DNA of 64,000 nt from an uncultured Ferruginibacter sp. GTDB lineage: Bacteria; Bacteroidota; Bacteroidia; Chitinophagales; Chitinophagaceae. Shown in pieces: positions 2,020 through 4,204 of the stretch (position 1 is its first letter; each line of letters begins with the position of its first letter). The position numbers and the translations under genes were made by a program. Below the pieces are notes generated by a model that saw only the letters and a program-made list of their open reading frames with translations, ran no database searches and was not told where the DNA came from. The stretch spans positions 2,381 to 66,380 of the forward strand of contig CAZZLI010000003.1 in assembly GCA_964655055.1 (NCBI GenBank), read 5' to 3'.

Positions 2020-2673
2020 ATGAAAAAAATACCGCTGCATAAACTACTGTTGCTGCTTTTTCTGTGTTCAGGTATAGGCTCCTGCAACTCTCCGTATGTT
2101 TCAAAGAAAAGGGGTTATTTCAACATCGACTTCCCCGAACATGCTTACCGCCGTTTCGAGGAAGCGGGCATACCCTACTCCTTCGAATATCCGGTTTATG
2201 CCACCGTAACGCAGGACACCACCTTTTTCGACAACAACCCTGAAAACGACTACTGGCGGAACATCGACTTTCCGGAATTTCACGGCAGGGTGTTCCTGAG
2301 CTATAAACGCATCGGCGGACAGGCGCTTTATAAAATAAAGCAGAACGGGATTTACAAGGATACCCTGGCCGTGAATGTGTTCGATAAGATGGTGGCCGAT
2401 GCCTTCATGCTGACCAACAAGAATGATGTGGTGGCCAATTCCATCAAAGACAGCCTGATCCGCACACCCAACGGCATCAGCGGCGTTTTCTTCAAAGTGG
2501 GCGGTAATGCCGCAACAGCACGTCAGTTCTTCCTGACCGACACGGTAAAACACTTTCTGCGCGGAGCCCTTTACTTCGACAGCACACCCAACAGCGACTC
2601 GCTCGAGCCCGTGCACAGTTTTTTGCAGCAAGACCTTGAGCATATGATCAACACCTTTCGCTGGAAAGACTGA
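2020..2673 (+). CDS. gldD: Gliding motility lipoprotein GldD
   Basis: Lipoprotein signal with Cys; motifs KKRGYFNIDFP, PYSFEYP, GGNAATARQFFLTD, HFLRGALYF. Confidence 0.85.
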   Translation: MKKIPLHKLLLLLFLCSGIGSCNSPYVSKKRGYFNIDFPEHAYRRFEEAGIPYSFEYPVYATVTQDTTFFDNNPENDYWRNIDFPEFHGRVFLSYKRIGGQALYKIKQNGIYKDTLAVNVFDKMVADAFMLTNKNDVVANSIKDSLIRTPNGISGVFFKVGGNAATARQFFLTDTVKHFLRGALYFDSTPNSDSLEPVHSFLQQDLEHMINTFRWKD

Positions 2674-2700
2674 TTGAACCGCATGCCGGACCTATTTGCC

Positions 2701-2708
2701 TAATTTTG
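2701..2708 (+). promoter_or_regulatory. Bacteroidota housekeeping -7 promoter element TAATTTTG
   Basis: Exact TAnnTTTG match 4 nt before the ATG at 2713. Confidence 0.55.
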
Positions 2709-2712
2709 CACC

Positions 2713-3297
2713 ATGATAGCCATCGACCATGTGCTGGTCAGTGATGAAATAATTGATGAACGCTTTGTCTGCGACCTCAGTAAATGTAAGGGCGGATGCT
2801 GTGTTGACGGTGATGCCGGAGCTCCCTTGGCCGAAGAAGAATTGCAATACATCGACGAAGTCATCGCCAAAGTACTCCCCTATTTATCGGATGAGAGTCG
2901 TAGCGAACTGGAGCGCCAGGGCCGGTACACCCACGACAAGGAATTCGGCTGGGTAACCCCCACCATCGGCGGCAGCGTTTGCGTTTATGGAATCAGGGAC
3001 GAACAAGGGGTGGTGAAATGCGGAATCGAGCAGGCGTACCGGGACGGAAAGATCGGCTGGGAAAAACCCATCAGTTGCCATCTCTTCCCCATCAAAACGG
3101 AAAAAAGCCGCAACGGCAAAACGGAATACATGAATTATCTGCCCCGGACCGACCTTTGCAAAGCCGCCTGCAAACTGGGTAAGAAACTCAAAGTACCCGT
3201 TTATGTTTTTCTTAAAGAACCCATCATTCGCAAATATGGTGCAGAATTCTACCAGGCCCTCGAAGCTGCAGCAGAACATCTGGGCAAACAGCCTTGA
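2713..3297 (+). CDS. DUF3109 family Cys-rich protein
   Basis: FVCDLSKCKGGCCVDGDAGAPL, CVYG, KCGIE and KPISCHLFP pattern typical of Bacteroidota DUF3109. Confidence 0.85.
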   Translation: MIAIDHVLVSDEIIDERFVCDLSKCKGGCCVDGDAGAPLAEEELQYIDEVIAKVLPYLSDESRSELERQGRYTHDKEFGWVTPTIGGSVCVYGIRDEQGVVKCGIEQAYRDGKIGWEKPISCHLFPIKTEKSRNGKTEYMNYLPRTDLCKAACKLGKKLKVPVYVFLKEPIIRKYGAEFYQALEAAAEHLGKQP

Positions 3298-3322: not shown

Positions 3323-4144
3323 ATGAACCAATTTGTCCATATCATGAACCCCAGGCACCTCTTTTTTTTCGCCCTGCTTTTTTTGTCGGGCTGCAGCGTG
3401 AACAAGGCCCGAATTGACGATTCGCTGAAGGTGCATTTCGACGAATACAAGATGGAGGGCTGCTTCACCTTCATGAACAACAAAACCGGCAAGGTTACCG
3501 TGTACAATCTGGCACTCGATACCCTGCGTACCCTGCCCGCCGAAACCTTCGATATAGCCGCAAGCCTTATCGGCCTGGAAACCGGAAGGGCAAGCGATGA
3601 AAAAATGAGGCTTAACATCGATACCGCATCGGAACAAACTAAGAACAGCAGCCCCTCGCTGGAAGAGGCCTTCCGCTCCGGAATCAATCCCTATTTCCGG
3701 GAACTTGTTCGCCGGATCGGCAAAGACACGCTTCGGCTCTGGATCGATAGTCTACATTACGGCAATCAGTCAATCGGAGAAAAACCCGACAGCAGCTGGC
3801 TCAACAACGAACTGGCGATTTCTCCCGACGAGCAACTCGGACTGATGAAGCGGCTCTACTTCGATCAGCTTCCCTTCCAGAAAAGAACCCAGCAGCTTGT
3901 GCGCGACATGATGATACGCGAAAACGATACCCGGTACACGCTTGCCTACAAAACCGGCTACGGGCAGGACAAGCAAAACAAGCCCGTAGGATGGGTTACC
4001 GGCTGGATCGAGGAAAACAAACATCCCTACTTCTTCACCCTGCTGATGAAGCCCGGTAAAACGCTTACCGACTCCAACGCCACAGGACTTGAACTGCTGA
4101 AAAAAATCCTCAGCCAATACGGATTTTTCAAGGGCAACATGTAA
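3323..4144 (+). CDS. Class D beta-lactamase/penicillin-binding transpeptidase-fold lipoprotein, predicted catalytically inactive
   Basis: Lipobox LSGC. OXA-like landmarks SLIGLETG, RRIG, WL, ISPDEQ, LPF, KTG and GWVTGW are present, but STFK reads ETFD and SxV reads GIN. Confidence 0.8.
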   Translation: MNQFVHIMNPRHLFFFALLFLSGCSVNKARIDDSLKVHFDEYKMEGCFTFMNNKTGKVTVYNLALDTLRTLPAETFDIAASLIGLETGRASDEKMRLNIDTASEQTKNSSPSLEEAFRSGINPYFRELVRRIGKDTLRLWIDSLHYGNQSIGEKPDSSWLNNELAISPDEQLGLMKRLYFDQLPFQKRTQQLVRDMMIRENDTRYTLAYKTGYGQDKQNKPVGWVTGWIEENKHPYFFTLLMKPGKTLTDSNATGLELLKKILSQYGFFKGNM

Positions 4145-4204
4145 CCTCCTTGCAGGACCCCGCTGCAGCTTTTTTTGTTGTTACTTTGCAGCCACAATCA
4201 TCTT

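What the first reader, a model, noticed from the sequence alone, without database searches (positions are those of the whole stretch)
3323..4144. Intact class D beta-lactamase-fold lipoprotein with systematically replaced catalytic residues (pseudoenzyme)
Seen: where OXA enzymes have PASTFK, this protein has PAETFD (codons GAA and GAT). The SxV motif is GIN, while KTG, the omega-loop Trp and the rest of the scaffold are retained, with no frameshift or premature stop. Established: the S70 nucleophile and carboxylated K73 are essential in class D enzymes and BlaR sensors. Both changes need multiple nucleotide substitutions and make the pocket acidic, which argues for selection rather than decay. 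It sits in a housekeeping run (DUF3109-this gene-ispG), not a resistance island. Inference: a surface or periplasmic binding or scaffold protein, possibly for a cationic ligand or peptidoglycan fragment, that automated pipelines would mislabel as an AMR gene.
Basis: partly seen in the sequence, partly recalled or inferred. Interest (0 to 1): 0.65.

Follow-up and report, generated by a model that had tools for sequence, protein, structure and literature searches.

The report
Catalytically dead class D beta-lactamase lipoprotein
A freshwater Ferruginibacter carries an intact lipoprotein descended from the family's own class D beta-lactamase that has lost every residue needed to attack or hold a beta-lactam yet is still kept by selection, and the same loss has happened repeatedly in related bacteria, which hints that these "resistance enzymes" also have a second, non-enzymatic job.

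Summary
ORF 3323-4144(+) is a class D beta-lactamase-fold lipoprotein with PAETFD in place of PASTFK and GIN in place of SxV. It has also lost the P-loop tryptophans, Trp211 and the Arg250 carboxylate anchor. YGN, (F)WL, KTG and GWxTGW remain.

It is not an error or a decaying pseudogene:
- The same protein is found on 20 independent contigs.
- Six sequence clusters (64-99% identity) form one clade sharing E/Q74, D77 and G120.
- The clade sits inside catalytically intact Ferruginibacter orthologues, at the same gldD-DUF3109 position.
- dN/dS within the clade is 0.13-0.16. That is purifying, but about 2.5-3x relaxed compared with intact orthologues (median 0.05).
- The predicted fold matches CPD-1 of Chitinophaga pinensis (TM 0.94).

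Dyad loss is recurrent. About 24 of 196 Chitinophagaceae genomes carry a dyad-less single-copy homologue, from at least 6 changes on the gene tree. Three other dead pairs gave dN/dS 0.07-0.16; only one of them has unsaturated dS.

Best reading: a pseudoenzyme kept for a non-hydrolytic binding or scaffold role. The ligand is unknown. The "acidic pocket for a cation" idea is not supported, because position 74 is E or Q and the pocket rim drifts. I rate it a new variant of a known kind, of moderate interest.

The parts
3323..4144 (+). [quoted passage not shown]
   Evidence: Relatives P0003-P0006 start at the residue aligned with M8.
3344..3394 (+). Signal peptide with lipobox L-S-G-C (Cys24 at 3392-3394). 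The segment after it, CSVNKARIDDSLK, is conserved in intact and dead relatives.
   Evidence: Read from the sequence. C24 is invariant in 121 aligned relatives.
3536..3556 (+). Remnant of motif-1 (SxxK): P72-A-E74-T-F-D77-I. The nucleophile Ser70 is replaced by Glu (GAA) and the carboxylated Lys73 by Asp (GAT).
   Evidence: Both columns are 100% S and K in 105 intact relatives.
3614..3652 (+). Remodelled P-loop. It is two residues shorter. The Trp95 equivalent is Ile (I99) and the Trp105 equivalent of motif-2 (FxxW) is Lys (K107). The conserved K98, G101, R104 and D110 are also replaced.
   Evidence: pLDDT falls to 60 here. Motif roles are from PMC12389319.
3674..3688 (+). Remnant of motif-3 (SxV): R118-S119-G120-I-N122. 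Ser118 is replaced by Gly and Val120 by Asn.
3758..3766 (+). Motif-4 YGN retained (Y146-G-N148)
3794..3802 (+). Motif-5 FWL present as S158-W159-L160. The Trp that holds carboxy-Lys73 in active enzymes is retained. The nearby omega-loop tip residue (Val153 equivalent) is Pro155 in the whole clade.
3950..3958 (+). Motif-6 KTG retained (K210-T-G212). The following Trp211-equivalent is Tyr here and N, K or Q in other clade members.
3989..4006 (+). Motif-7 GWxTGW retained (G223-W-V-T-G-W228)
4085..4087 (+). G255, at the position of the Arg250 carboxylate anchor. It is Arg in 95% of intact relatives and Gly or Thr in the clade.
   Evidence: The equivalence to OXA-48 Arg250 is inferred from helix register and from the alignment to 7K3M.
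4150..4177 (+). Terminator-like hairpin plus T-run six bases after the stop codon. It may end a gldD-DUF3109-bla-like transcription unit.
   Evidence: This is a pattern match only, and the region holds no more such matches than shuffled sequence.
2020..3297 (+). Upstream neighbours gldD (2020-2673) and DUF3109 (2713-3297), same strand, separated from this gene by 39-bp and 25-bp gaps. This linkage is conserved in related genomes.

Best explanation
The gene encodes a lipid-anchored periplasmic protein. It is the vertical descendant (orthologue) of the intrinsic CPD-1-type class D beta-lactamase that almost every Chitinophagaceae genome carries.

In one freshwater Ferruginibacter lineage the acylation machinery and the substrate anchors were replaced:
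- Ser70 to Glu or Gln
- carboxy-Lys73 to Asp
- Ser118 to Gly
- Val120, Trp95 and Trp105 of the P-loop, Trp211 and Arg250

The motifs that hold the fold together (YGN, WL, GWxTGW, KTG) were kept.

The protein therefore cannot be acylated by, hydrolyse or properly bind beta-lactams. This is inferred from the established mechanism, not assayed.

The gene is nevertheless kept intact under purifying selection, so it has a non-hydrolytic role that depends on the folded domain. I take this to be a binding or scaffolding role in the cell envelope that the ancestral lipoprotein already had alongside catalysis. Asp77 may substitute for the carboxylate of carboxy-Lys73 next to the retained Trp159, and Glu/Gln74 may fill the space next to Lys210. 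Both contacts are inference.

Shown: homology, fold prediction, motif losses, clade, synteny, selection regime and recurrence. Inferred: lack of activity, the location, and the nature of the retained role.
For: - Class D homology and fold. AlphaFold model pLDDT 86.7; Foldseek top hit 7K3M with TM 0.94 and rmsd 1.8 A.
- Fifteen positions that are at least 90% conserved in 105 intact relatives are replaced in every clade member. They include S70, K73, N76, W95, W105, S118, V120 and R250 equivalents. 76 of 107 conserved columns are retained.
- The clade is monophyletic (SH-aLRT 100) and nested among intact Ferruginibacter sequences.
- Neighbour proteins GldD, DUF3109 and IspG show the same genomes are each other's closest relatives, with identical gene order.
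- dN/dS is 0.163 (dS 0.57) and 0.127 (dS 0.49) within the clade, against a median of 0.053 (5-95%: 0.034-0.087) in 18 intact pairs.
- All frames are open, although neutral simulation gives P about 0.004 of staying open at 0.25 substitutions per site.
- There is a single copy and no intact class D paralogue in the 98.8%-complete genome.
- Other dead lineages give the same signal: dN/dS 0.158 (dS 0.38), 0.10 and 0.07. The last two pairs have dS of 1.14 and 1.76, near saturation, so only the first is a clean estimate.
- 196 of 201 family genomes keep one homologue whether or not the dyad is present.
Against: - No assay, transcript evidence or coordinates of the model were available.
- Constraint is clearly relaxed compared with intact orthologues, and the stem branch is long (0.83 substitutions per site), so much of the original function is gone.
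- No conserved new surface or partner could be identified.
- With only five independent clade sequences, the invariance of D77, S119 and G120 is not statistically meaningful (58% of all positions are invariant).
- Gene context is conserved only within the Ferruginibacter-like group, not across the family, so context says little about the role.
Confidence: 0.7

Rival explanations
1. New catalysis. The Glu74/Asp77 pair (with Lys210) forms a new active site, for example a carboxylate-based hydrolase or a metal site acting on a cell-wall or other substrate.
For: D77 and G120 are invariant in the clade, and E/Q74, R118 and S119 are newly fixed at the core of the old site. Among dyad-less representatives, Q/E at position 70 and D/N at position 73 recur often: QxxD x5, QxxN x3, several ExxX and NxxD.
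Against: Position 74 is Gln in one clade member, which normally abolishes acid/base or metal-ligand function. The pocket rim drifts freely within the clade. Other dead lineages carry A, G, P, H or Y at position 70 and lose KTG as well, so no common new site exists. D/N at position 73 is also what the mutational path from AAR would give.
Confidence: 0.1
2. Slow decay. The gene lost its function and is a young pseudogene that has not yet been disrupted.
For: dN/dS is 2.5-3x higher than in intact orthologues and the stem branch is long. Single, very recent nucleophile losses also exist in relatives (PAYTFK, PAATFK).
Against: Divergence inside the clade reaches dS above 1-2 with dN/dS 0.07-0.17. 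Every member keeps a 265-273-codon open frame. Neutral simulation closes the frame in over 99% of runs at 0.25 substitutions per site. The same pattern appears in independent lineages.
Confidence: 0.05
3. It still binds beta-lactams non-covalently and acts as a sponge or sensor.
For: The fold, KTG and the omega-loop Trp are retained.
Against: The residues that anchor the beta-lactam carboxylate and form the pocket walls (Arg250, Trp211, Trp105, Val120) are replaced and variable (roles from PMC12389319). There is no fused signalling domain, and BlaR1-type sensing requires acylation of the serine.
Confidence: 0.05
4. The open frame is kept for reasons unrelated to its protein, such as translational coupling or regulatory sequence for neighbouring genes.
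For: Tight spacing with DUF3109 upstream (25 bp) and conserved gldD-DUF3109-gene order.
Against: Such constraints do not produce protein-level purifying selection across the whole domain or retention of the fold-defining motifs. A terminator-like hairpin follows the gene. The downstream neighbour is not conserved. Dead homologues in other genera lack this context.
Confidence: 0.03

Closest known systems
CPD-1, the class D beta-lactamase of Chitinophaga pinensis DSM 2588 (Cpin_0907; PDB 7K3M, 8EP6)
   Same: It is the best sequence and structure match (E=6e-63; TM 0.94, rmsd 1.8 A, 44% identity). Both belong to the same Chitinophagaceae group, in which each genome has one chromosomal homologue. 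They share family-specific segments (KRLYFDQLPFxK, GWIEENxHPxFF, the C-terminal GxFKG).
   Different: CPD-1 has PASTFK, SAV, the P-loop Trp residues and the Arg before the last helix. The window protein has PAETFD and GIN, a P-loop two residues shorter without the Trp residues, and Gly for the Arg.
OXA-48-type carbapenem-hydrolysing class D beta-lactamases
   Same: Same fold (TM about 0.91, 28-29% identity). The YGN, WL, KTG and GWxxGW motifs align.
   Different: The catalytic Ser70, carboxy-Lys73 and Ser118, and the substrate anchors Trp105 and Arg250, are all absent here. This protein is a lipoprotein, chromosomal and vertically inherited.
BlaR1/MecR1 sensor domain (the known non-hydrolytic use of the class D fold)
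   Same: A class D fold used for something other than resistance by hydrolysis. The BlaR1 model matches at 131.7 bits, and 1NRF at E=2.9e-30.
   Different: BlaR1 keeps Ser and Lys and works by being acylated. It is the C-terminal domain of a membrane zinc protease. The window protein has neither the serine nor any fused domain, and scores far below the BlaR1 cut-off of 400.
Pseudoenzymes in general (catalytically dead homologues retained by selection)
   Same: It meets the operational definition: enzyme homology, catalytic residues replaced, purifying selection.
   Different: I found no described dead clade of class D beta-lactamases in the searchable literature. Here the dead form is the orthologue itself, not a duplicated paralogue, and the loss recurs in many lineages.

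Membership tests
Class D beta-lactamase (functional enzyme; seven motifs as listed in PMC12389319) | Overall class D fold and sequence homology | tested here: met
   NF012161 E=7.6e-50. Foldseek TM 0.94 to 7K3M and about 0.91 to OXA-48.
Class D beta-lactamase (functional enzyme; seven motifs as listed in PMC12389319) | Motif-1 S70-x-x-K73 (nucleophile and carboxylated lysine) | tested here: not met
   E74-T-F-D77. The columns are 100% S and K in 105 intact relatives.
Class D beta-lactamase (functional enzyme; seven motifs as listed in PMC12389319) | Motif-2 FxxW at the P-loop tip, and the Trp95 core of the P-loop | tested here: not met
   W107 to K and W99 to I, with the loop shortened by 2 residues.
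Class D beta-lactamase (functional enzyme; seven motifs as listed in PMC12389319) | Motif-3 S118-x-V120 | tested here: not met
   G120-I-N122.
Class D beta-lactamase (functional enzyme; seven motifs as listed in PMC12389319) | Motif-4 YGN, motif-6 K(S/T)G and motif-7 GWx(T/V)GW | tested here: met
   Y146GN, K210TG and G223WVTGW.
Class D beta-lactamase (functional enzyme; seven motifs as listed in PMC12389319) | Motif-5 FWL | tested here: inconclusive
   S158-W159-L160. Trp and Leu are kept. Phe is replaced here and in one other clade member, and kept in three.
Class D beta-lactamase (functional enzyme; seven motifs as listed in PMC12389319) | Arg250 and Trp211 substrate anchors | tested here: not met
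   G255, at a column that is Arg in 95% of intact relatives, and Y213 after KTG. The equivalence to Arg250 rests on alignment register.
Class D beta-lactamase (functional enzyme; seven motifs as listed in PMC12389319) | Score above NCBI's curated class D cut-off | tested here: not met
   169.4 bits against a cut-off of 250.
Class D beta-lactamase (functional enzyme; seven motifs as listed in PMC12389319) | Hydrolysis of, or acylation by, beta-lactams | not testable with these tools
   Needs nitrocefin and Bocillin-FL assays.
CPD-1-type intrinsic class D lipoproteins of Chitinophagaceae (orthologous group) | Nests within the group in a tree; single copy per genome | tested here: met
   It lies in a 24-row clade (SH-aLRT 99) with 16 intact Ferruginibacter sequences. 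There is one copy in the own genome, and 196/201 family genomes have a homologue.
CPD-1-type intrinsic class D lipoproteins of Chitinophagaceae (orthologous group) | Same chromosomal position as intact orthologues of related species | tested here: met
   DUF3109 lies immediately upstream in 69/71 and gldD in 62/71 related loci with intact motifs. Same-genus genomes G191 and G056 also have DUF3109 upstream.
CPD-1-type intrinsic class D lipoproteins of Chitinophagaceae (orthologous group) | Lipoprotein signal with conserved Cys | tested here: met
   LSGC lipobox; C24 is invariant in 121 sequences. Lipidation itself was not tested.
BlaR1/MecR1 beta-lactam sensor | Sensor domain fused to an N-terminal membrane zinc-protease domain, and an acylatable serine | tested here: not met
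   The protein is 273 aa with only a signal peptide before the domain. NF000326 scores 131.7 against a cut-off of 400. Ser70 is absent.
Pseudoenzyme (operational definition) | Enzyme homologue lacking catalytic residues and kept under purifying selection | tested here: met
   Absence of activity is inferred, not measured.

The most novel reading that the evidence does not exclude
The intrinsic CPD-type class D beta-lactamase lipoproteins of Chitinophagaceae have a second, non-hydrolytic function in the cell envelope that selection acts on. It is exposed by repeated natural 'catalytic knock-outs': at least 6 changes of dyad state on the gene tree, about 12% of sampled genomes, and a large share of all 50%-identity clusters near this protein. 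These dead forms stay as intact, single-copy genes under purifying selection. If so, the dead orthologues are a ready-made tool for asking what chromosomal beta-lactamases do besides destroying antibiotics.
Probability: 0.45. Interest if true: 0.75.

Novelty: new variant of a known kind. Interest (0 to 1): 0.58.

Why it matters
1. Annotation. Public sources already name members of this clade 'beta-lactamase class D'. Among the 150 best 50%-identity cluster representatives, 59 do not read SxxK at the dyad positions, about 48 of them full-length. Homology-based resistome counts in soil and freshwater metagenomes may therefore be inflated by proteins that cannot hydrolyse beta-lactams. A simple motif filter (S70, K73, S118) would remove them.

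2. Biology. What chromosomal beta-lactamases of environmental bacteria do besides antibiotic defence is an old open question. Orthologues that lost catalysis several times and yet remain under purifying selection are a natural experiment on it. Several dyad-less homologues lie in closed or nearly closed genomes (for example G028, G169, G033, G172, G185), which may be cultured isolates.

3. Evolution. This is pseudoenzyme formation without gene duplication, recurring in one bacterial family.

Tried and rejected
- Sequencing or assembly error: rejected. 20 independent contigs carry the 99%-identical protein.
- Hidden intact paralogue in the same genome: none found.
- Neutral pseudogene: rejected.
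- Exact-pattern scan of metagenome contigs for PA[EQ]TFD[VI]..SLIGLETG: 0 hits, although the pattern matches all ten known loci. The collection may withhold near-identical records, so it says nothing about clade size.
- First AlphaFold run with an 11-sequence alignment was poor (pLDDT 53.5). The 121-sequence run was good. Neither gave coordinates, so E74-K210 and D77-W159 distances could not be measured.
- IQ-TREE codon models were fitted, but omega could not be recovered from the report. I relied on pairwise Nei-Gojobori estimates, which are saturated for the deepest pairs.
- The tree of cluster representatives lumps nearly all dead forms together, including the window clade with P0128 and P0129 (SH-aLRT 98). 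Trees of the neighbouring DUF3109 and GldD proteins place those organisms in a different well-supported clade, which suggests long-branch or heterotachy attraction. AU tests do not reject a single group (p=0.055 and 0.25), so independence of that particular pair of losses is likely, not proven. Independence of other losses rests on their nesting among intact sequences.
- Functional link to gldD/DUF3109: the linkage holds only in the Ferruginibacter-like group, so I do not use it to infer function.
- Sigma-70 promoter scan: uninformative for Bacteroidota.
- Literature searches for a described dead class D clade found nothing relevant. The library is incomplete, so this is weak evidence of novelty.
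- Earlier notes of this scan concern an unrelated cluster at 18.5-27.4 kb.
Full report
**1. Observation**

The window has an uninterrupted ORF at 3323-4144(+) of 273 codons. Its N-terminus is a signal peptide ending in the lipobox LSGC (Cys24). Close relatives start at the residue aligned with M8, so 3344 is the likelier start.

- Pfam places the protein in PF00905 (66.7 bits).
- NCBIfam's best model is the class D beta-lactamase main model (E=7.6e-50). The score, 169.4 bits, is below the curated cut-off of 250.
- The nearest solved structures are 7K3M and 8EP6, the class D enzyme of Chitinophaga pinensis (E=6e-63). OXA-48 and the BlaR1 sensor follow at about 1e-30.

Residues 72-77 are PAETFD (GAA at 3542-3544, GAT at 3551-3553). 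FRSGIN replaces FKVS(A/S)V. KTG, YGN and the omega-loop Trp are present.

**2. Anatomy against the seven class D motifs**

A recent structural review lists seven motifs and their roles (PMC12389319). I compared 105 relatives that keep the dyad with the clade described below. Fifteen positions that are at least 90% conserved in the intact set are replaced in every clade member.

| Feature | Role | State in the window protein |
|---|---|---|
| Motif-1 SxxK (70-73) | catalytic | lost: E/Q74, D77 |
| Asn76 equivalent | conserved | replaced: A, T or S |
| Trp95 equivalent | core of the P-loop | replaced: I, P or T |
| Motif-2 FxxW (Trp105 at the P-loop tip) | substrate side wall | lost: K, M, A or deleted; loop 2-3 residues shorter |
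| Motif-3 SxV (118-120) | catalytic | lost: G120; N, T or G at 122 |
| Motif-4 YGN | structural | kept |
| Motif-5 FWL | holds carboxy-Lys73 | Trp and Leu kept; Phe is Ser here |
| Motif-6 KTG | bridges the cleft | kept |
| Trp211 equivalent | oxyanion hole and side wall | Y, N, K or Q |
| Motif-7 GWxTGW | structural | kept |
| Arg250 equivalent | anchors the carboxylate | G or T |
| Val153 equivalent | omega-loop tip | Pro |

- 76 of 107 conserved columns are unchanged.
- The catalytic and substrate-anchoring elements are gone, while the elements described as structural remain. KTG, which the review counts among the active-site motifs, is also kept.
- An AlphaFold model built on a 121-sequence alignment is confident (pLDDT 86.7, pTM 0.83). 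Confidence dips in the P-loop and omega-loop.
- The model superposes on 7K3M with TM 0.94 and rmsd 1.8 A.
- The equivalence of G255 to OXA-48 Arg250 rests on alignment register and my recollection of the OXA-48 C-terminus, so it is inference.

**3. Not an error, not a lone sequence**

The large protein search returned five further clusters, P0002-P0006, at 99-64% identity. All have PAETFD or PAQTFD plus RSG. Everything at 61% identity or below has PASTFK.

- P0002 is encoded on 20 contigs from different sequencing runs.
- All recovered loci share the gene order gldD-DUF3109-this gene-ispG-YhhN-nadB-like.
- Genome records identify the group as Ferruginibacter (Chitinophagaceae). One clade member comes from a Ferruginibacter genome binned from a metagenome (isolate ME2000-08-17pf).
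- The window's genome is 2.87 Mb and 98.8% complete. It has this single class D homologue, ordinary high-molecular-weight PBPs and a class A-like homologue elsewhere.

**4. Evolutionary position**

- In a tree of 115 homologues the E/Q-x-x-D sequences form one clade (SH-aLRT 100) on a long stem (0.83 substitutions per site). Their sister has an intact dyad.
- In a wider family tree the clade lies in a 24-row group (SH-aLRT 99) with 16 intact Ferruginibacter sequences.
- Neighbour proteins agree. GldD, DUF3109 and IspG of the clade's genomes are 78-92% identical to the window's, against 75% or less for most other genomes.
- Three other species of the same GTDB genus have PASTFK.
- The position is orthologous. 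DUF3109 is immediately upstream in 69/71 and gldD in 62/71 related loci with intact motifs. ispG is adjacent in only 3/74.

**5. Selection**

| Comparison | dN/dS | dS |
|---|---|---|
| Window clade, L001-L111 | 0.163 | 0.57 |
| Window clade, L031-L113 | 0.127 | 0.49 |
| 18 intact pairs, dS 0.3-0.9 | median 0.053 (5-95%: 0.034-0.087) | 0.3-0.9 |

- Deeper pairs within the clade give 0.07-0.17, but at saturated dS.
- Constraint is therefore about 2.5-3x weaker than in intact orthologues, yet far from neutral.
- 3.8% of point substitutions in this ORF create a stop. In simulation only 0.4% of neutrally evolving copies stay open at 0.25 substitutions per site, ignoring indels. All clade members are open.
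- Within the clade, E/Q74, D77, R118, S119, G120 and P155 are fixed. The former rim (positions 80, 99, 104, 107, 122, 158, 255) varies.
- With five independent sequences and 58% of all positions invariant, fixation of the core positions is not significant on its own.

**6. The loss is recurrent**

A HMMER scan of 1.84 billion cluster representatives changed the picture. Of the best 150 hits, only 91 have SxxK, and 59 do not read SxxK at the dyad positions. About 48 of these are full-length proteins lacking Ser70 and/or Lys73, and most of those also lack SxV or KTG. Those inspected have lipoprotein N-termini of the same type.

I then sampled Chitinophagaceae genomes evenly.
- 196 of 201 genomes have a homologue, nearly always one.
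- Among about 97 homologues examined, at least 24 lack the dyad, spread over many genera.
- Ten sampled from the unexamined middle of the score range were all intact. That gives roughly 12% of genomes with a dead form.
- The gene tree needs 7 changes of state, and 6 are forced by well-supported branches.
- Examples of dead forms nested among intact ones are L010 beside intact L075, in both the class D and the DUF3109 trees, and L121/L124/L130/L131/L150 within a clade containing intact L027, L119 and L120.
- Other dead pairs also show purifying selection: 0.158 (dS 0.38), 0.10 (dS 1.14) and 0.07 (dS 1.76), against 0.03-0.05 for intact pairs. Only the first of these has unsaturated dS.

Caveat: the representative tree lumps dead forms together, including the window clade with P0128 and P0129.
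- Neighbour-gene trees separate those organisms.
- AU tests do not reject joining them (p=0.055 and 0.25).
- I therefore claim several independent losses in the family, but not the exact number.

**7. Mechanism**

From the established class D mechanism (PMC12389319), a protein without Ser70, carboxy-Lys73 and Ser118 cannot be acylated or deacylate. Without Arg250, Trp211 and Trp105 it also lacks the platform that positions a beta-lactam.

I conclude it is inactive and probably does not bind beta-lactams. This is inference and was not assayed.

Retention under selection, as the sole copy and in several lineages, argues for a non-hydrolytic role of the folded lipoprotein. The most economical reading is a role that intact family members also have. 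Its nature (binding or scaffolding in the envelope) is my best guess. No conserved new surface, partner or family-wide gene context could be found.

Asp77 may replace the carboxylate of carboxy-Lys73 next to the retained Trp159. This is a structural hypothesis only.

The 'acidic pocket for a cation' idea is weakened by Gln at position 74 in one lineage and by the drifting rim.

**8. Comparison and novelty**

The protein is a member of the CPD-1-type orthologous group by descent and by position. It fails the defining catalytic features of a class D beta-lactamase, so it should not be filed as one. It is not a BlaR1-type sensor either.

I found no description of dead class D clades in the searchable literature. 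I rate it a new variant of a known kind (a pseudoenzyme), with practical weight for resistome annotation, because members are already labelled 'beta-lactamase class D'. It also offers a useful handle on the non-resistance roles of chromosomal beta-lactamases.

Noticed in passing
L010 (genome G082), homologue at about 1479-2268: An independent degenerate homologue (PGTSFK, PST for SxV, TTG for KTG) on a long branch. It is sister to an intact sequence (L075) in both the class D tree and the DUF3109 tree, and it also has DUF3109 upstream.
   Followed up: partly
L056 and L066 (Ferruginibacter MAGs): Single-residue nucleophile losses (PAYTFK, PAATFK) in otherwise intact, short-branch sequences. These could be very recent inactivations or assembly errors. 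The first protein search also showed PASTFE, PASTFN and PAATFK variants.
   Followed up: no
L158 (genome G008, contig C64:1911-2588): A homologue with intact PASTFK, SCV and KTG motifs but one in-frame TAA. It is a possible true pseudogene or a sequencing error.
   Followed up: no
window 4150-4177: Terminator-like hairpin (TTGCAGGACCCCGCTGCAG) followed by a T-run, six bases after the stop codon. It suggests ispG is transcribed separately. The match count in the region is no higher than in shuffles.
   Followed up: partly
window 2020-3297 and 71 related loci: gldD (gliding-motility lipoprotein), DUF3109 (a Cys-rich Rv0495c-family protein) and the class D lipoprotein form a tightly spaced, conserved trio in Ferruginibacter-like genomes (69/71). 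The trio is absent in other Chitinophagaceae genera.
   Followed up: partly
own genome, contig C16:646-1269 (-): A 354-aa ORF matches the class A-type Beta-lactamase2 family (PF13354, 110 bits). The genome may therefore still encode another serine beta-lactamase.
   Followed up: no
Cluster representatives P0128-P0183: Dyad-less class D-fold lipoproteins make up a large share of the 50%-identity clusters nearest this protein, because they diverge fast and split into many clusters. D or N at the Lys73 position and Q or E at the Ser70 position recur. The best genome matches of one of them (P0136) are all in Chitinophagaceae.
   Followed up: partly
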